A stretch of 64,000 bases of DNA from the human T2T-CHM13v2.0 reference genome, Homo sapiens. The stretch lies in the NCBI RefSeq assembly GCF_009914755.1, contig NC_060929.1; one strand, given 5' to 3'. Positions 1-55,479 of the stretch are shown piece by piece. The notes under the pieces are model-generated. The model saw nothing but the letters and a program-made list of their open reading frames with translations, was not told the origin of the DNA and did no database searches. Positions within the stretch are counted from its first letter, which is position 1. Every line of letters begins with the position of its first letter. The position numbers and the translations under genes are program-made.

Positions 1-476
1 GTTCCTTCCTGATGGAACCCTGGGTTTTCAGCAGCTTCCGGGGCGGGGTGGGAGGGTCCTGAACTGCAGAGAGCGCCCTGGGCATGTGTACTTCCACCTC
101 CGCAGGCGCTGGCATCTCCAGGCAGCTTCAGGCCGCTTTGGAACTCACCGTCGGTAGCATCTGCGTCTTCTTGAGGGGACTGAAGACCGTCTGTGGTTTC
201 AGCCATTGACTCCTCAAAATGGGAGTCTGGAGGCCGTTTTTGGCCCCTCTCATCTCCGGGAAGGGCTCCGTGCCTGGTGGAGGCTCAGTGCAGCAGCCAG
301 CTCGCAGCAGAGCTCCCACAGAGCTGATGGCATTGACAGGAGTGGCGGCTCAGCACAGGGAAGTTATCCAGTGCCCAGGCCCAGACTTGCTCTCGGTTCA
401 GGTCCCATGGCATGTGGGGCTCTGGACCTGCCTGCCTCCAAGACAGCTCTTCCAGAGTTGATGGATGGAACTCCAT
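1..476 (-). pseudogene. ANXA2R-family intronless pseudogene, type X copy X1 (3' end runs off the window)
   Basis: ATG at 476 reads MEFHPSTLEELSWRQAGPEPHMPWDLNREQVWAWALDNFPVLSRHS...SWLLH* then ASTRHGALPGDERGQ...EESMAETTDGLQSPQEDADATDGEFQSGLKLPGDASAC. One premature TGA at 285-287. Aligns gap-free with recalled ANXA2R at PEP..P...E....W.L..[FY]PVL...S. TATAAAA at 566-572 (-). Confidence 0.75.
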
Positions 477-565
477 AGCCTCAGCCTCCCAAAGCTTGAC
501 CAGGTCCGGCCAAGTAGCTAGTCTAGGAAAAGAGCAAATGGCTCAATTCATCCCTGACTGTGGGT

Positions 566-572
566 TTTTATA
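566..572 (-). promoter_or_regulatory. TATA box of copy X1
   Basis: TATAAAA about 96 nt upstream of the ATG; same position in X5 (16246-16252) and X2 (4322-4328). Confidence 0.5.
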
Positions 573-3279
573 GCATTCTGTCTTGTACAGGAAGTCGGAT
601 ACCAGAATCCAATCATGTGGGGATTAACACTTATTACCTTGCTAATTGCTTTAAACCATGATAGGGTTGTGGTGGAAAGTTTATCATTCCAGAAGGCACT
701 ATTGAAACTCCTTGGGTTTCTATTGGATCAGGCTGTAATAGGGTGGGGCAGGGTGTGAGAGAATGGGTCCAGTTATTGGCAGTTTTCTTATTTCAATAAG
801 AAATTGGCAGTTTTCAGTATTTCACAATTTGATGAGATGTTAGATGTACATCTCATATAGAAATGCTTTATCAAATTAAGGGAATTTGCAATTTCTAATT
901 TGCTAAGATGACTTTTATATTAATGAAGCAGGGTTGAATTTTTTAAAAGATTTTTTGTATCTACTGAGATTATCGTATATTTTTTCTGCTGTTAATGTGG
1001 AGAATAATAGAGATTGATTTTCAAACGCCAAACCAAAGTTGAGTTCCTGATAAACTCCATTAGATTATGATGCATTTTTTTAAAGTATATTACTGGATTC
1101 AGAATGTTAACATATAGTTGATTTGGCCCTGTGGTTTGGGAAAGATATTGGATGATGAAAAAATTGAAGAGGGGGCACTGGAATGACGCACGAAAAGGTC
1201 GTATAAATACTTAAACTTGTTGGTATTTAAAAAGGACTTTCTATGTAGTTGTACCACTCAGTCAAAGACTGTTTAAATGTAGGGAACATGTCTCATTTGC
1301 AGCATATCGAGAGTCAAGATTGGCCTGAGTCATTCTATTTTTGAAGGTACTCTGAAACAAATTTTAATACAGAGTGAATTTTTGAGGATTCCAACAGCAG
1401 GGGAAAAACAGTGAAGTACATAAGGTGAGCAGAAAGGTATGTTTTAATGGCCTGGCTTCCCCCAAAAAACATTACTGAAATAAACACTCATGTGAGATTG
1501 CTTTATTCAAGAGTGCTGTCCTTAGGAAGTGGGAGTGAGAAGAAAAAGGAGAGGGTCAGGGATGAGCATATTCAATGCTGTGCTTCCTAGTTGTTCAAGC
1601 TTAGTATCAAGTATGACCAGAGGTGACTTTATTATTAAACCAATAAAGTTTAACTGTAAGGCAAACTTCCAAAGAGTTTGTAAAACATTTGTCTTAAAAC
1701 ATTTTTATAATTCTCTTAAACAGAATCCCCTACTACTTGTATGAACACTGACTCCACAAATTGGAAACCGCTGTGAACACTAATGGTTGTTTGATCTCAT
1801 GAAACCATCTTCTGAGAGGCCTTATGAATAACTGCTTCTCAGCACAGTTCACTTGGGAGGAAGAAAAGGACAGAATATATCCACTGTTGGGAGATAACAC
1901 AATTCTCACAACAAAAACCCCAGTGTACCAAACAGAAGAGGCAGGGAACACTAGCATTCAGTTGGTATTCACAGATTTTCATGCATTTAAGTTAGCATGA
2001 CAACTACAAAGTTAGGCCACATCTCATACATTTTCAGCAGAGCAGGGGGAAGCAGGATGAATTCCTTTCTCTCTTCAAAGAAACAGAGAACACCTTACAA
2101 TAGTATTTTGTCATCTGCTAAGAGACCCTCAGCTCATTCTGAAAGTACTTTTAAGAAACATTTACATATTATTATTTGTCCTGTGACCATGGATATATTG
2201 ATATATTGCAAAAACTTGAGATTCAATTTTATCTTCAGATGGACAAATCTAAATTCAAATGGTTCAACTATGGATTAAGACTCACCATATTAAATGTGAT
2301 ATTACTGGTCAATTTCTTTTATGGGTTTTAGGAAAAGAAAACACTCATATAGTATAAGCAGAAAACTATTATGGGATAAAATTCACTTAAAATATGATAA
2401 AAATGTGTAGACATAGATTTTAGACTGAATGTCAGGGAATGATTTTCTGAACCACATTGCAAACTGGCTCCCTAAAACAAGATGCTGTCAGAAATCAGTA
2501 AACACTAAATCAGACAGCAGCTGAACCACCCTGGGCTTCTCTCTTCAGAAACATGCCTCAAATATTAGACACTGGATCAATCCAAGTGTCTATAGGGAAT
2601 AAATGTATACAGTAATTATCATGATCTATTTTTGGAGGACAAATACTTAATCTATTTTTAAAAACAATCTGGCAATACTCCATAAAATTAGGTTATGCAT
2701 TTTCAATGCACAGTTCAGCTGGAGGATGATGTATATCCTAAATAAATTCTCATGAGAATGAGACTAATGTATGTGATATTGGTGATTAGGTTGCATCTGA
2801 GTCTCCCCTGTGGGACACTGGAGAGGGAACGTGTGGCAGAGGCTCATCAGAAGCTGATATGCTGAAGTTGGAAGCAGCAGGTAAAATGTTCCTATAAAAA
2901 TCTTAGAAACTTGTCAATAAATGGAAAATAATAAACAAGATACACACTCCAATACTTTTTGTAATAATTGAAAATCTACACAAAAAATGTGTCACATATA
3001 AGACTGATTGCTACAAAACACACAATAGAAATAAAAATAAAATAGCTGGAAATAAAATAGTAATAAGAATTTCAGTAGAAGTATGAAAGGAGATAAAAGA
3101 CAATAAGTAATAAAATGCACCTAATTACATAAAATAGGATTGGGGCCTGCACAAAGCACTATTAAAAATGTTAAGTCAATTCAGCTTATTATACCCTTAG
3201 GTATAAAAATCATAGCACCCTTGAGGTCTCCCTTTCATATAGTTAGATGAGTGTAGACACAAATAGAAAATATATGGCT

Positions 3280-3590
3280 GCCGGGCGCAGTGGCTCACGC
3301 ATGTAATCTCAACATTTTGGGAGGCCAAGGTGGGCGGATCACCTGAGGTCGGGAGTTTTAGACCAGCCTGGCCAACATGGATACCATCTCTACTAAAAAT
3401 ACAAAATTAGCTGGGCGTGGTGGCACATGCCTGTAATCCCAGCTACTCGGGAGGCTGAAGCAGGAGAATCGCTTGAACCTGCGAGGCGGAGGTTGCGGTG
3501 AGCCAAGATCGCGCCATTGAACTCCAGCCTGGACAACAAAAGTGAAACACAAAAAAAAGAAAAGAAAAAGAAGGAAGGAAGAAAGAAAGA
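3280..3590 (+). mobile_element. AluS
   Basis: Alu dimer with A-rich tail; TSD agaaaat[a/g]tatggct; absent from arm A'. Confidence 0.92.
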
Positions 3591-3629
3591 AGAAAATGTA
3601 TGGCTTTACAAAAGTCCTGGGATGCTCCA

Positions 3630-54086: not shown

Positions 54087-54149
54087 GGAGGGAAGTCTGT
54101 ATTGTTCCTGCGTTCAACCCAGTGCATAGTGCATGAGAAGAGGAGGCAG

Positions 54150-54750
54150 TTTAGGGGCCCAGAACCAAGCGGATGGGGCTGGTTGCAGGAACAAAGTAAA
54201 AACCATTCTGATTGCCAACAGCTGCCTACGCAGGAAACACCCTTCCAACCTCCGTGGCGGGGCTCTCCCAGGCCACCCCTCGGTCCCAGAGTCTCCTCCC
54301 CGTCCAGAGCTCTCAGGATCCTACAGAAGGGGCGGACAACTCTTCCCTTCCAAACTGGAAAGTCGGCCTAGGTTTCCGAGGATAATGAAAGGCACAGCGT
54401 TTTTTGACCTCGACTTCAGGCCTGACCCCCCACTCTCTCGGTCCCCTACCTCTTCTGCGGGATGTAACTCTGTGGGAACCGCTCCTTTATTCTGATGATT
54501 AACTGTCTGATATCCTTGATATTTGGGGATAGTAGATGAAAGAGAGCAGGAGAGAAAAATGGACGGCAAGACTCCAGCTCAGAAGGTGGGAATGATGGCA
54601 AAAGTCCGCTACCTCTCCAAGCTCAATAAACATCTCAAACTGCTCTACACTTTTCTGTACCCTTGATCTGTGAAATGGATCACTGACGTTTTCTGTCTTT
54701 CGGGAAATGCAAAGCAGGCGAATTTTCAAGCGCTTGAATTCCCTCTTTTT
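54150..54750 (-). pseudogene. Possible highly diverged ANXA2R-family relic
   Basis: Peptides in the expected order: LGEVADFCHHSHLLS~LGEYSLDSCDLGLLS, then HPAEEVGDRESGGSGLK~APVEEVG (ANXA2R) and QSGLK (X copies). Confidence 0.42.
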
Positions 54751-55084
54751 CCTACTTTTCAGTCAGAGTGGAGCTAAAAACTCCTTCCCCATAGGAAATA
54801 TGGAACTGCCTCTGCCCGGAAGAAAAACGTCCCTTTTCCCTAAGCTTTCACATTTCCCGAAAAATCTACACATCCGCATGAAATCCTCACAAGAGACCTA
54901 CAGACCCTACCGGGAGCGTTCCTGTCACTACAAAAAATTTAAAAATTAGCCGGATGCGGTCGCGGGTGCCTGTAGTCCCAGGTACCAGGGAGGCTGAGGT
55001 GGGAGGATCTCTTGAGCCCAGGAGGTCCAGGATGCAGTTAACGATGATCCTAAGACCACGAGGCAATTGGAGGATCCTCAAATA

Positions 55085-55270
55085 CCAGGGAGAAACTAGC
55101 TAGCAGACATAGTATGGTGGGAGGGGAAGATCAAGGCAAATGCCTTGGGAGTGGGTGAGAATTGCGACTTCATATTGGATCTCCTGACCTGTGAAGGCCC
55201 TTTTCTAGGCTCCTCTGGACCTGTCCTCTGCCCAGGTTCAACCAGAAAAGGATGGAATTTGTTGCATGGT
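55085..55270 (-). pseudogene. Possible X-type ANXA2R-family relic
   Basis: KFHPFLVEPGQRTGPEEP~EFHPSTLEELSWRQAGPEP; SAS*(TAG)FLPG at the conserved Trp position. Confidence 0.4.
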
Positions 55271-55479
55271 ATCTTCAGGGTGAGGTTGGGAGATGATGCG
55301 GGAACGCTCATCCCTGGTCTTAGGAACGGGAGAACAAAGGAAAAATGGCATCATTTCCACCTAAAAAGTTACAAGCACTTCACCAGAAGGAACAGCCCAG
55401 GCGGAGCCTTTGTAAAAGAAAAGCCCCACCCACTGCTTCGCACTCCTCATTTCCACCCAGCAGAGCATTTTAGTGGCAA

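What the first reader, a model, noticed from the sequence alone, without database searches (positions are those of the whole stretch)
1..55300. Cryptic cluster of at least nine intronless ANXA2R-family genes and pseudogenes in 55 kb
Seen: two families of repeated single-exon units. Type X lies at 1-476(-), 4727-6205(+), 10603-10872(-), 11100-12274(-) and 16340-16990(+). Type R lies at 6910(+), 24993(+), 43254(+) and 44868(+). Most have TATAAAA 65-100 nt upstream of the ATG. Recalled knowledge: both types align with human ANXA2R. Type X aligns gap-free over about 110 aa, with 15-16 of 49 identities in the core by my hand alignment. Inference: ANXA2R, usually treated as single-copy in human, is a surviving member of a rapidly evolving birth-and-death tandem family hidden in sequence that looks non-coding.
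Basis: partly seen in the sequence, partly recalled or inferred. Interest (0 to 1): 0.9.

Follow-up and report, generated by a model that had tools for sequence, protein, structure and literature searches.

The report
Decayed ANXA2R/RESIST gene cluster relics
This stretch of human chromosome 5 holds the broken remains of several copies of the interferon-regulating gene ANXA2R (RESIST) and of a distantly related, unnamed gene family, showing that today's single human gene is the survivor of a much larger duplicated cluster.

Summary

**R units**
- R4 (44868+) is a full-length ANXA2R-like pseudogene. It is colinear with the ANXA2R CDS, has three in-frame TAG stops and no net length change.
- R3 is a promoter plus a 39-codon fragment.
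- R2 is a divergent 158-codon ANXA2R-like ORF inside a CpG island.
- R1 is only a ~100-nt promoter-flank fragment.
- A tenth relic was missed. Window 50051-53234 is a 77% copy of the ANXA2R 5' gene part, and its coding exon has been deleted.
- Window 26-61 kb is an ~80% segmental-duplication sister of the ANXA2R locus.

**X units**
- The five X units are frameshifted or truncated copies of a separate intronless, TATA-driven gene family.
- Predicted proteins exist in five mammalian orders, all named "hypothetical".
- The units sit on inverted duplications together with PRELID3B pseudogenes.
- Processed retrocopies on chr2, chr5q35 and chr17 show that X and R2 were once transcribed.
- X matches ANXA2R only at profile level: hhalign P 0.002, with 0 of 150 shuffles reaching the score. 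I take this as probable remote homology, not proof.

No unit in the window is intact. The multi-copy nature of the family is already known in mouse and bats. The human relics and the X family appear to be undescribed.

The parts
1..542 (-). X1: young X-type pseudogene. TSS-equivalent at 542, ATG at 476. It runs off the left edge of the window to about -345.
   Evidence: X-HMM E 1.7e-37 and 3.7e-31. 84% protein identity to X5, with one in-frame TGA at codon 64. TATAAAA at -96. The C-terminal half is read in a shifted frame relative to X6.
4665..6271 (+). X2: old-subfamily X pseudogene, ATG at 4727. An Alu at 5048-5358 interrupts it, and its upstream region is replaced by an Alu/(CA)n.
   Evidence: X-HMM hits lie in at least 4 different frames in colinear order, hmm 7-186. 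It is inverted-paired with X4: 4645-5052 vs 12356-11948 at 88.5%, and 5342-6271 vs 11962-11025 at 83%. K2P to X5 is 0.67.
6795..6898 (+). R1: a ~100-nt fragment homologous to the R3/R4 promoter and 5' flank. No recognisable coding part.
   Evidence: Local DNA alignment: R1 -115..-12 vs R4 -144..-41 gives z 27, and vs R3 z 13.6. Against ANXA2R, z is 2.8. The frames score at chance.
9160..9619 (-). PRELID3BP5: a processed pseudogene carried along with the X3 copy of the duplication unit.
   Evidence: Hub annotation. 8925-9810 is inverted vs 19178-18165 at ~79%.
10450..10872 (-). X3: 3' fragment of a young X unit.
   Evidence: 10112-10866 vs 17509-16747 at 85.6%. X-HMM hmm 175-232, E 6e-7. K2P to X5 is 0.126.
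11025..12338 (-). X4: old-subfamily X pseudogene, ATG at 12274. It is the palindrome partner of X2.
   Evidence: X-HMM hits in several frames. 36% protein identity to X5, with TGA, TAG and TAA stops. The TATA box has degraded to TGTAAAA. K2P to X2 is 0.132.
16246..17165 (+). X5: the best-preserved X unit in the window. TATAAAA at 16246, TSS at 16276, ATG at 16340, 127-codon ORF ending at 16723, ATTAAA at 17138.
   Evidence: ORF. X-HMM E 1.1e-65, with the C-terminal part found in another frame at 16787-16987. Both dispersed copies start at 16276, and the chr2 copy has AATAAA, an A-rich tail and an 11-nt target-site duplication.
18313..19213 (+). PRELID3BP6: a processed pseudogene about 1.1 kb downstream of X5, part of the same duplication unit.
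   Evidence: Hub annotation. 18125-20117 vs window coordinates 73303-75281 at 82%.
24946..25703 (+). R2: divergent ANXA2R-like single-exon unit with a 158-codon ORF at 24993-25469 and AATAAA at 25680. It lies in a CpG island.
   Evidence: tblastn q4-157, E 2.6e-6 uncorrected. Smith-Waterman score 97 vs shuffles 39.8+/-6.6, 0 of 500 reaching it. DNA z is 8.0 to ANXA2R and 8.7 to R4. Retrocopy at chr17:51648236-51648778. GC 0.67, CpG o/e 0.83.
43011..43375 (+). R3: ANXA2R-like promoter (TATAAAA at 43186) plus the first 39 codons from ATG 43254. Homology is then lost, and an Alu follows at 43471.
   Evidence: blastn to ANXA2R CDS 1-123: 65%, E 5e-9. Family HMM E 7.3e-6, top of 1656 segments. Pfam PF15721 E 0.016, 16.1 bits.
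44624..45450 (+). R4: full-length ANXA2R-like pseudogene. TATAAAA at 44798, ATG at 44868, three in-frame TAG stops.
   Evidence: blastn CDS 30-495 vs 44897-45362: 58%, E 1.3e-17. DNA z 29, with the same offsets from the ATG in both sequences. Three TAG stops. 85% copies at chr5:43286589-43287348 and chr5:43252485-43253233. The first of these overlaps the place that passes the Pfam cut-off at 43.6 bits.
50051..53234 (-). R5 (not in the finding): paralogue of the 5' part of the ANXA2R gene (upstream exon, intron and CpG-island promoter). The coding exon has been deleted.
   Evidence: 77.4% over 3315 nt to window coordinates 140966-144195. Homology stops 58 nt before the position of the ANXA2R ATG. 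No CDS match in 48100-50100, only Alu matches and 3' flank 48424-48769. CpG o/e 0.7-0.9.
26014..61459 (+). Block of old segmental duplication, 77-86% identical and colinear with the ANXA2R locus at window coordinates ~110600-151700.
   Evidence: Region self-BLAST and ANXA2R gene region vs window.

Best explanation
The window is the decayed half of a duplicated ANXA2R (RESIST) gene cluster. Two kinds of small, intronless Pol II genes once sat here.

(a) ANXA2R-type units.
- R4 is a full-length pseudogene with three TAG stops.
- R3 is a 5' fragment.
- R2 is a divergent copy that still has a 158-codon ORF.
- R1 is a promoter scrap.
- R5 is a copy of the ANXA2R promoter, first exon and intron whose coding exon was deleted.

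(b) X-type units (X1-X5).
- They belong to an unnamed family of ~150-260-aa proteins predicted in primates, carnivores, rodents, bats and artiodactyls.
- The family has a near-invariant block, PEPhxPPGLNREQAWAWALDNFPALS.
- It is most likely an ancient, very divergent sister family of ANXA2R.

How the copies arose and decayed.
- Copies arose by tandem and inverted segmental duplication. The young X units travelled together with a PRELID3B processed pseudogene.
- Transcripts of X and R2 were also retrotransposed to chr2, chr5q35 and chr17.
- The copies then decayed by stop codons, frameshifts, Alu insertion, truncation and deletion.

Shown: the homology of R3 and R4, the duplication architecture, the retrocopies, the defects, and the cross-mammal X family.

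Inferred: X-ANXA2R common ancestry; that the ancestors acted like RESIST (binding CCR4-NOT to stabilise IFNB1 mRNA); and that turnover reflects immune-gene birth and death.

Nothing in the window is likely to make a full-length protein today.
For: R units.
- blastn of the ANXA2R CDS against the window gives R4 at 58% over 477 nt (E 1.3e-17), R3 at 65% over 123 nt (E 5e-9) and R2 at 68% over 76 nt (E 2.8e-4).
- DNA local-alignment z values are 29, 18 and 8 against 100 shuffles.
- An HMM of 29 mammalian ANXA2R proteins was run against all 1656 six-frame segments of the window. The top four were R3 7.3e-6, R4 3.8e-4, X1 0.0068 and R2 0.02. The next hit was at 0.27.

Architecture.
- R4 has 85% copies beside ANXA2R.
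- Window 44-61 kb is colinear with the ANXA2R locus at 77-86%.
- The coding exon is missing from the window copy.

X as a real gene family.
- 28 cluster representatives at E<=1e-3.
- 64 proteins in a second search. The named ones are all 'hypothetical' or 'unnamed', from 8 species.
- The conserved block is visible in alignment A2.
- Genome-wide there are only 14 DNA matches, 12 of them in the chr5p12 cluster.
- Both dispersed copies begin at window 16276, 30 nt after TATAAAA. The chr2 copy has AATAAA, an A-tail and a target-site duplication.

X to ANXA2R link.
- hhalign A2 vs A1 scores 30.5, P 0.0019, aligned from the start Met. 150 column shuffles gave mean 12.9, sd 2.3, max 20.5 (0 of 150 reach 30.5). 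Reversed profiles scored 15.9 and 16.3.
- Reciprocal hmmsearch hits are in one register, hmm 19 to X 17. Examples: P0035 at 1.8e-5 and P0030 at 2.5e-4.
- 0 of 4623 composition-matched decoys reach 13.0 bits, and 5 of 23 real X proteins score >=10.1.
- In the 244-kb region (6354 segments), the X0, X1 and X6 frames are among the 16 segments with E<0.5.
- The bat protein P0080 joins an X-type N-terminus to an ANXA2R-type C-terminus (PF15721 positions 111-176, E 5.8e-5).

Context from papers.
- Mouse has two tandem Resist paralogues, and ANXA2R binds CCR4-NOT (PMC12310523, passages read).
- An ANXA2R expansion in horseshoe bats is cited in PMC13500052 (passage read).
Against: - No unit in the window reaches the Pfam gathering score of 27 bits. 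The best are R3 at 16.1 bits and R4 at 15.4 and 19.2 bits.
- 0 of 20 X frames, 0 of 4 R2 frames and 0 of 2 R1 frames hit PF15721 at E<=1.
- With composition-based statistics, human ANXA2R gives no significant tblastn hit in the window. R3 is at 0.033, R4 0.20, X1 0.86, R2 1.1 and X5 1.6. An Alu-region hit scored E 0.008 in the uncorrected run.
- The hhalign probability is only 14.5%.
- The X HMM does not hit R2, R3 or R4 at E<=1.
- No DNA-level similarity was found between X units and the ANXA2R locus.
- P0059, P0036, P0092 and P0080 could be gene models that read through neighbouring units rather than true intermediates.
- Differences among the six human X copies are nearly equal at the three codon positions: 0.08-0.20, 0.05-0.13 and 0.08-0.17. 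So there is no sign of constraint within human.
- R2 lies in 67% GC sequence where all six frames are open for 81-222 codons. Its ORF is therefore not evidence of coding.
Confidence: 0.8

Rival explanations
1. The X units are an independent orphan gene family that merely sits in the same duplication-prone interval as ANXA2R. Under this reading the resemblance is shared composition (Pro/Glu/Gln-rich, disordered) plus a short chance motif.
For: - Pfam PF15721 hits 0 of 20 X frames.
- The hhalign probability is 14.5%.
- Composition-corrected tblastn with human ANXA2R gives E 0.86-1.6 for X1 and X5.
- There is no DNA-level similarity between X and the ANXA2R locus.
- The X HMM does not find R2, R3 or R4.
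- In P0059 and P0092 an ANXA2R-type N-terminus and an X unit lie side by side as separate modules.
Against: - The profile-profile score lies 7.6 sd above column-shuffled nulls (0 of 150 reach it) and is about twice the reversed-profile score.
- 0 of 4623 shuffled decoys reach the scores of P0030 and P0035.
- All reciprocal hits are in one register from the start Met.
- The most conserved blocks of the two families align on each other: W-x-L-x-x-F/Y-P-x-L.
- Both families are intronless units of similar size in the same cluster.
Confidence: 0.17
2. One or more units in the window are still functional. Candidates are a truncated X5 protein of 127 aa that keeps the conserved N-terminal block, and the 158-aa R2 protein.
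For: - The ORFs are intact from the homologous ATG.
- X5 keeps its TATA box, TSS and poly(A) signal.
- R2 lies in a CpG island with o/e 0.83.
- Both gave retrocopies, so both were once expressed in the germ line.
Against: - RefSeq lists no gene at either place (hub table).
- X5 is cut at codon 128 and is frameshifted relative to the 238-codon X6 and to the non-primate proteins.
- Substitutions among the human X copies look neutral.
- R2 lacks the C-terminal region that RESIST needs for its function (PMC12310523). The R2 alignment to ANXA2R ends at q157.
- Six-frame openness at R2 is explained by its GC content.
Confidence: 0.1
3. The repeated units are copies of a transposable element, or non-coding duplicated DNA that was never a gene.
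For: Many Alu and L1 copies fill the window. ORF length alone is unremarkable here, with 40 ORFs of >=90 aa.
Against: - The X unit has 14 DNA matches in the whole genome, the R2 unit 3 and the R4 unit 4. Almost all lie in this cluster.
- The dispersed copies have the hallmarks of processed mRNA copies, not of an autonomous element.
- X-type ORFs are predicted in five mammalian orders, with a near-invariant block.
- R4 is colinear with the ANXA2R CDS.
Confidence: 0.02

Closest known systems
Human ANXA2R (C5orf39; renamed RESIST), chr5:43292330-43292905(-) in this assembly, Pfam PF15721
   Same: - R2, R3 and R4 share its start, its order of segments and its single coding exon.
- R3 and R4 carry a TATAAAA about 70 nt upstream of the ATG, where ANXA2R has CATAAATA at about -73.
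- R5 shares ANXA2R's promoter, first exon and intron.
- All lie in the same SELENOP-ANXA2R interval.
   Different: - None is intact, and none reaches the Pfam cut-off.
- R2 has lost the conserved W and the C-terminal region.
- X shares only a remote profile-level resemblance, concentrated in the first ~60 residues.
Mouse Resist1/Resist2 (Gm21188/Gm36079) tandem paralogues (PMC12310523)
   Same: A tandemly duplicated ANXA2R-type locus. It shows that the family does duplicate in place.
   Different: The mouse copies are near-identical and functional. The human extra copies are 58-85% diverged and dead. The paper states that the human protein is encoded by a single gene.
ANXA2R expansions and 'annexin-2 receptor-like' predicted proteins in other mammals: horseshoe bats (Tian et al. 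2025, cited in PMC13500052), and rhinoceros, Glossophaga, hippopotamus, walrus
   Same: Lineage-specific gain of copies of the same family, in an antiviral context.
   Different: Those are intact annotated paralogues. Here the copies are unannotated relics. The X family is not part of those annotations: the named X hits are all 'hypothetical' or 'unnamed protein product'.
Processed-pseudogene-bearing segmental duplications (PRELID3BP4-7 array)
   Same: X1, X3, X5 and X6 each sit about 1.1-1.2 kb from a PRELID3B pseudogene. One retro-insertion was therefore amplified together with the X gene (hub table).
   Different: The RefSeq annotation names only the PRELID3B passengers, not the X units that travel with them.

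Membership tests
ANXA2R / RESIST (Pfam PF15721) | Match to the PF15721 profile at or above the gathering score (27 bits) | tested here: not met
   - R3: 16.1 bits, E 0.016.
- R4: 15.4 bits, E 0.026, and 19.2 bits read through its stops.
- R1, R2 and all 20 X frames: no hit at E<=1.
- An 85% DNA copy of R4 beside ANXA2R does pass, at 43.6 bits.
ANXA2R / RESIST (Pfam PF15721) | Nucleotide-level homology to the ANXA2R coding exon, colinear from the ATG | tested here: met
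   - R4: CDS 30-495, 58%, E 1.3e-17.
- R3: CDS 1-123, 65%, E 5e-9.
- R2: CDS 24-98, 68%, E 2.8e-4.
- z values are 29, 18 and 8.
- Not met for R1 (z 2.8). Not met for any X unit (no hit).
ANXA2R / RESIST (Pfam PF15721) | Conserved N-terminal signature M-E-x-H-F...V-K-x-A-W-D-S and core D..P..L-P-x-Y-P-V-L (near-invariant columns of alignment A1) | tested here: inconclusive
   - R3 keeps MKQHFPSGVQQAWDS and then diverges.
- R4 has MKLLSPLGVWQAPDS followed by a stop.
- R2 keeps EP..P..EDR and YLPTPLG but has lost the W.
- X has MEFHP...PEP...W-A-L-D-N-F-P-V/A-L aligned on W-P-L-P-L-Y-P-V-L.
ANXA2R / RESIST (Pfam PF15721) | C-terminal region needed for CCR4-NOT binding and function (helix at residues 168-177 of mouse RESIST; PMC12310523) | tested here: not met
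   - The R2 alignment ends at ANXA2R residue 157, and R4's at 165.
- R3 stops at residue 39.
- Primate X proteins end in ...CPCGLL.WNCALHA, with no match to profile positions beyond about 146.
- Only the bat protein P0080 shows profile 111-176.
ANXA2R / RESIST (Pfam PF15721) | Single coding exon, small transcript, located in the SELENOP-ANXA2R interval | tested here: met
   - Retrocopies are colinear with genomic X5 (~885 nt) and R2 (~760 nt, apart from a 213-nt gap without GT-AG).
- All units lie 76-140 kb from ANXA2R on chr5 (hub table).
ANXA2R / RESIST (Pfam PF15721) | Binding to CNOT1/CNOT9 and stabilisation of IFNB1 mRNA | not testable with these tools
This needs bench work.
X family (unnamed; alignment A2) | Conserved block PEPhxPPGLNREQAWAWALDNFPALS, with invariant W34, F39 and S46 | tested here: met
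   - X5 and X1 carry it in an open frame.
- X2 and X4 carry it degraded and with stops.
- X3 lacks this part.
Transposable element | High copy number, dispersed through the genome | tested here: not met
   14, 3 and 4 DNA matches genome-wide for the X, R2 and R4 units. No Dfam or RepeatMasker library was available here.

The most novel reading that the evidence does not exclude
The X family is a second, so far unnamed branch of the RESIST/ANXA2R superfamily. It has been kept across boreoeutherian mammals because its invariant W-A-W-A-L-D-N-F-P block docks into the tryptophan pockets of CNOT9. It would then be another modulator of CCR4-NOT-dependent mRNA decay. Humans still carry one intact 238-codon copy (X6, chr5:43223874-43224590, 8 kb to the right of the window). 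If so, 'RESIST is encoded by a single human gene' would be only half of the story.
Probability: 0.2. Interest if true: 0.8.

Novelty: new variant of a known kind. Interest (0 to 1): 0.55.

Why it matters
ANXA2R was recently re-identified as RESIST, a CCR4-NOT-binding protein that stabilises interferon-beta mRNA and has antiviral effects (PMC12310523).

What the relics show:
- The human gene is the last intact member of a cluster that once held several copies. That places it with other fast-turnover immune loci.
- They give a dated record of gains and losses that can be compared with the mouse and bat expansions.

What the X family offers:
- It is a concrete, testable candidate for a further member of the same functional class. 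It is unannotated in RefSeq for this window and is known elsewhere only as 'hypothetical protein'.

Practical point:
- The 77-86% paralogous blocks, including a CpG-island copy of the ANXA2R promoter, can confuse read mapping, guide design and enhancer assignment at ANXA2R.

Tried and rejected
- **Pfam scan of 32 frames from the claimed units.** It gave only two sub-threshold ANXA2R hits and nothing for X.
- **Pfam scans of 43 X-family proteins.** There were 5 ANXA2R hits: P0035, P0036, P0059, P0092 and P0080. The hits in P0036, P0059 and P0092 come from a neighbouring ANXA2R-type N-terminus, not from the X part. P0052 and P0055 were unrelated repetitive proteins and P0032 was a chimera. These three were left out of alignment A2, together with the partial hits P0037 and P0042 and the near-identical P0029.
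- **R1 as a gene copy.** Rejected.
- **A surviving ANXA2R coding exon in the window's paralogue, 48100-50100.** None was found, only Alu matches and 3' flank.
- **An intron as the cause of the 213-nt gap in the chr17 retrocopy of R2.** Rejected, because the junction has no GT-AG.
- **Transposable element.** Rejected on copy number.
- **Purifying selection among the human X copies.** Not seen.
- **Solved structures.** None for the X profile. For the ANXA2R profile there was one chance-level hit at E 0.16.
- **Soft-masking.** The window file carries none.
- **Literature.** 'annexin-2 receptor-like' gave 0 papers. 'ANXA2R' plus 'pseudogene' gave 5 papers, none on this topic judging by title and abstract listing. 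Tian et al. 2025 is not in the held library and was seen only as a citation. No supplements were opened.

Full report
**Observation**

The window is human chr5:43152001-43216000 (T2T-CHM13), and the same assembly could be searched as G000.

An HMM built from the X family hits translated frames at all five claimed X places: 1-542(-), 4598-5547(+), 10662-10910(-), 11773-12358(-) and 16195-16987(+).

Self-comparison shows why the X units repeat:
- 1-6271 is an inverted copy of 16805-11025, at about 83-91% identity.
- 7832-10866 is an inverted copy of 16747-21264, at 80-86%.

So X1/X5 and X2/X4 are palindrome partners, and X3 is a 3' fragment. A distance matrix and tree of nine copies splits them into two groups:
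- A young group (X0, X1, X3, X5, X6 and two dispersed copies), star-like, K2P 0.10-0.18.
- An old pair (X2/X4), 0.13 from each other and about 0.65 from the young group.

The R units are less uniform:
- R3 and R4 are tandem copies, 43011-43371 vs 44624-44983 at 72%.
- R2 is only weakly similar to R4.
- R1 matches only about 100 nt of the R3/R4 5' flank, offset by 29 nt from its supposed ATG.

TATAAAA lies upstream of 4 of the 8 starts examined: X1 -96, X5 -94, R3 -68, R4 -70.

**Are the R units ANXA2R relatives?**

I took the ANXA2R coding exon from the same genome: 193 codons at chr5:43292330-43292905(-).

At DNA level the CDS matches the window as follows:

| Unit | CDS positions | Identity | E-value |
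|---|---|---|---|
| R4 | 30-495 | 58% | 1.3e-17 |
| R3 | 1-123 | 65% | 5e-9 |
| R2 | 24-98 | 68% | 2.8e-4 |

- Against 100 shuffles, the local-alignment z values are 29, 18 and 8. The R4 alignment has identical offsets from the ATG in both sequences.
- R4 read from its ATG has three in-frame TAG stops and no net frameshift up to codon ~165.
- A profile of 29 mammalian ANXA2R proteins was searched against all 1656 six-frame segments (>=25 aa) of the window. It ranked R3 (7.3e-6), R4 (3.8e-4), X1 (0.0068) and R2 (0.02) first, with the next hit at 0.27.
- R2's ORF scores 97 against ANXA2R, versus 39.8+/-6.6 for 500 shuffles, none of which reaches it.

Evidence on the other side:
- The Pfam profile gives only 16.1 and 15.4 bits for R3 and R4, against a cut-off of 27. 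It gives nothing for R1 or R2.
- With composition-based statistics no tblastn hit of human ANXA2R is significant. The best is R3 at 0.033.

I accept R3 and R4 as ANXA2R-derived on the DNA evidence. I accept R2 as probable. I reject R1 as a gene copy.

**Architecture**

- R4 has 85% copies at chr5:43286589-43287348, which overlaps a place that passes the Pfam cut-off at 43.6 bits, and at chr5:43252485-43253233.
- The ANXA2R gene region aligns colinearly with window 46404-58003 at 75-87%.
- A self-comparison of 244 kb around the window shows that window 26-61 kb is a mosaic paralogue of window coordinates 110-152 kb. That interval contains ANXA2R.

Within this block, window 50051-53234 corresponds to the part of ANXA2R upstream of its coding exon (77% over 3.3 kb). 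It keeps CpG-island character, with o/e 0.7-0.9. Homology stops 58 nt before the position of the ATG, and no trace of the coding exon is found in 48100-50100.

In the same 244 kb, further ANXA2R-type fragments lie outside the window. One is an N-terminal piece at window coordinates 120966-121184 (110 bits). Another is at 197318-197524.

**What is X?**

It is not a transposable element. The 1-kb X5 unit has 14 DNA matches in the genome. Twelve lie in this chr5p12 cluster, one on chr5q35 and one on chr2.

X was a true intronless, TATA-driven, polyadenylated gene of about 885 nt:
- Both dispersed copies begin at the base matching window 16276, exactly 30 nt after the TATAAAA at 16246.
- The chr2 copy ends in AATAAA plus an A-rich tail, and is flanked by an 11-nt direct repeat.
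- Its mRNA was therefore retrotransposed.

R2 likewise has a processed copy on chr17. It starts at window 24946 and ends after the AATAAA at 25680, with an A-rich tail.

The X5 ORF has relatives in protein databases:
- 28 cluster representatives at E<=1e-3.
- 64 proteins with a profile search.
- The named ones are all 'hypothetical' or 'unnamed', and come from Plecturocebus, Saguinus, Mirounga, Sigmodon, Pteropus, Fukomys, Rangifer and Ovis.
- Their alignment has a near-invariant block, PEPhxPPGLNREQAWAWALDNFPALS.

Within the window every X copy is defective:
- X1 has a TGA at codon 64 and a shifted C-terminal half.
- X5 stops at codon 128, and its C-terminal part lies in another frame.
- X2 carries an Alu and several frameshifts.
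- X4 has three stops.
- X3 is a fragment.

Differences among the six human copies are almost equal at the three codon positions, so they look neutral.

Each young X unit lies about 1.1-1.2 kb from a PRELID3B processed pseudogene (hub table). One retro-insertion was therefore amplified together with the X gene.

**Is X related to ANXA2R?**

Direct tests are weak:
- No Pfam hit in 20 X frames.
- tblastn E of 2.7e-4 uncorrected and 0.86 corrected.
- Single-sequence Smith-Waterman z about 5.

Profile-level tests are better:
- hhalign of the X alignment (23 sequences) against the ANXA2R alignment (26 sequences) gives score 30.5, P 0.0019, starting at both initiator Mets. The stated probability is only 14.5%.
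- 150 column-shuffled ANXA2R profiles gave 12.9+/-2.3, with a maximum of 20.5. Reversed profiles gave about 16.
- The ANXA2R HMM hits X proteins in a single register, for example P0035 at 1.8e-5 and P0030 at 2.5e-4. The X HMM hits ANXA2R proteins in the matching register.
- None of 4623 shuffled or reversed X decoys reaches 13.0 bits, and only 3 reach 10.1. Five of the 23 real X proteins score >=10.1.
- The best-conserved blocks of the two families fall on each other: W-A-L-D-N-F-P-A-L on W-P-L-P-L-Y-P-V-L.

Some predicted proteins combine both types: P0059 and P0036 in seal, P0092 in sheep and P0080 in bat. These may be read-through of neighbouring units. I count them as evidence of adjacency in other mammals, not as proof of homology.

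I put common ancestry at about 0.8.

**How it works**

Nothing in the window is likely to work as a protein today.

The mechanism I commit to is historical. Small intronless genes of the RESIST/ANXA2R superfamily were multiplied by tandem and inverted segmental duplication. They were occasionally retro-copied. They were then lost by stops, frameshifts, Alu insertion, truncation and exon deletion. ANXA2R was left as the only intact ANXA2R-type copy.

The function of the ancestors is inferred from RESIST. RESIST binds CCR4-NOT through a C-terminal helix on CNOT1 and through the tryptophan pockets of CNOT9. It stabilises IFNB1 mRNA (PMC12310523, passages read).

The family turns over elsewhere as well:
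- Two tandem paralogues in mouse (same paper).
- An expansion in horseshoe bats (Tian et al. 2025, seen only as cited in PMC13500052).
- Two 'annexin-2 receptor-like' proteins on one contig in black rhinoceros, and two in Glossophaga.

**Novelty**

The multi-copy, fast-turnover nature of ANXA2R in mammals is already in print.

I found nothing on human relics or on the X family:
- 'ANXA2R' plus 'pseudogene' returned 5 papers, none relevant by listing.
- 'annexin-2 receptor-like' returned 0 papers.
- 'ANXA2R' plus 'paralog' returned 12 papers, of which 8 were listed.

RefSeq has no row for any unit (hub table). PMC12310523 says the human protein is encoded by a single gene. I could not check GENCODE, Dfam or the bat paper itself.

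**Not done**

Noticed in passing
outside the window: window coordinates 71874-72590 (chr5:43223874-43224590, locus L014 1501-2217): X6 is the only human X copy with an intact full-length ORF (238 codons from the conserved ATG, inside a 249-codon open frame). It differs by one residue from database protein P0030, whose only listed source is 'lgn', with no NCBI or UniRef entry. It may be a live, unannotated gene.
   Followed up: partly
G000 chr2:141711131-141711986 (L016), chr5:180367320-180368128 (L012), chr17:51648236-51648778 (L027): These are processed retrocopies of X (chr2 and chr5q35) and of R2 (chr17). The chr2 copy has AATAAA, an A-tail and an 11-nt target-site duplication. The chr5q35 copy keeps a 161-codon open frame but has no ATG, and an Alu cuts its 3' end. 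The chr17 copy lacks 213 nt that are present in R2.
   Followed up: partly
window 50000-53500 and 25000-25499: Two CpG-island-like stretches, with o/e 0.7-0.9 and 0.83 against 0.32 for the whole window. The first is the paralogue of the ANXA2R promoter/intron region. It overlaps the RefSeq enhancer and silencer features and the start of lncRNA LOC105374745. The second is the body of R2.
   Followed up: partly
proteins P0059, P0036 (Mirounga leonina), P0092 (Ovis aries), P0080 (Pteropus alecto): These predicted proteins contain both an ANXA2R-type piece and an X-type piece in one frame. In seal an ANXA2R N-terminus sits directly in front of X. In sheep X is followed by an ANXA2R N-terminus. In the bat an X N-terminus is joined to an ANXA2R-like C-terminus. 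This shows that the two unit types are neighbours in other orders too.
   Followed up: partly
outside the window: window coordinates 120966-121184(+), 95923-96022(+), 134744-135100(+), 197318-197565(-), 154204-154433(+): Further relics in the 244-kb region. There is an ANXA2R N-terminal fragment of 67 codons (110 bits), and a 100-nt piece of the CDS start at 87% identity. There is also the R4-type copy beside ANXA2R, an ANXA2R-like relic beyond ANXA2R, and another X-type fragment.
   Followed up: partly
window 24766-26123: All six reading frames are open for 81-222 codons across the R2 region, which is 59-67% GC. ORF length here says nothing about coding.
   Followed up: yes
window 34374-38002: L1 remains with ORFs of 113, 132, 407 and 322 codons on the + strand. 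These are endonuclease/reverse-transcriptase-like sequences by eye. The segment 33299-38813 is 90-91% identical to window coordinates 154647-161485.
   Followed up: no
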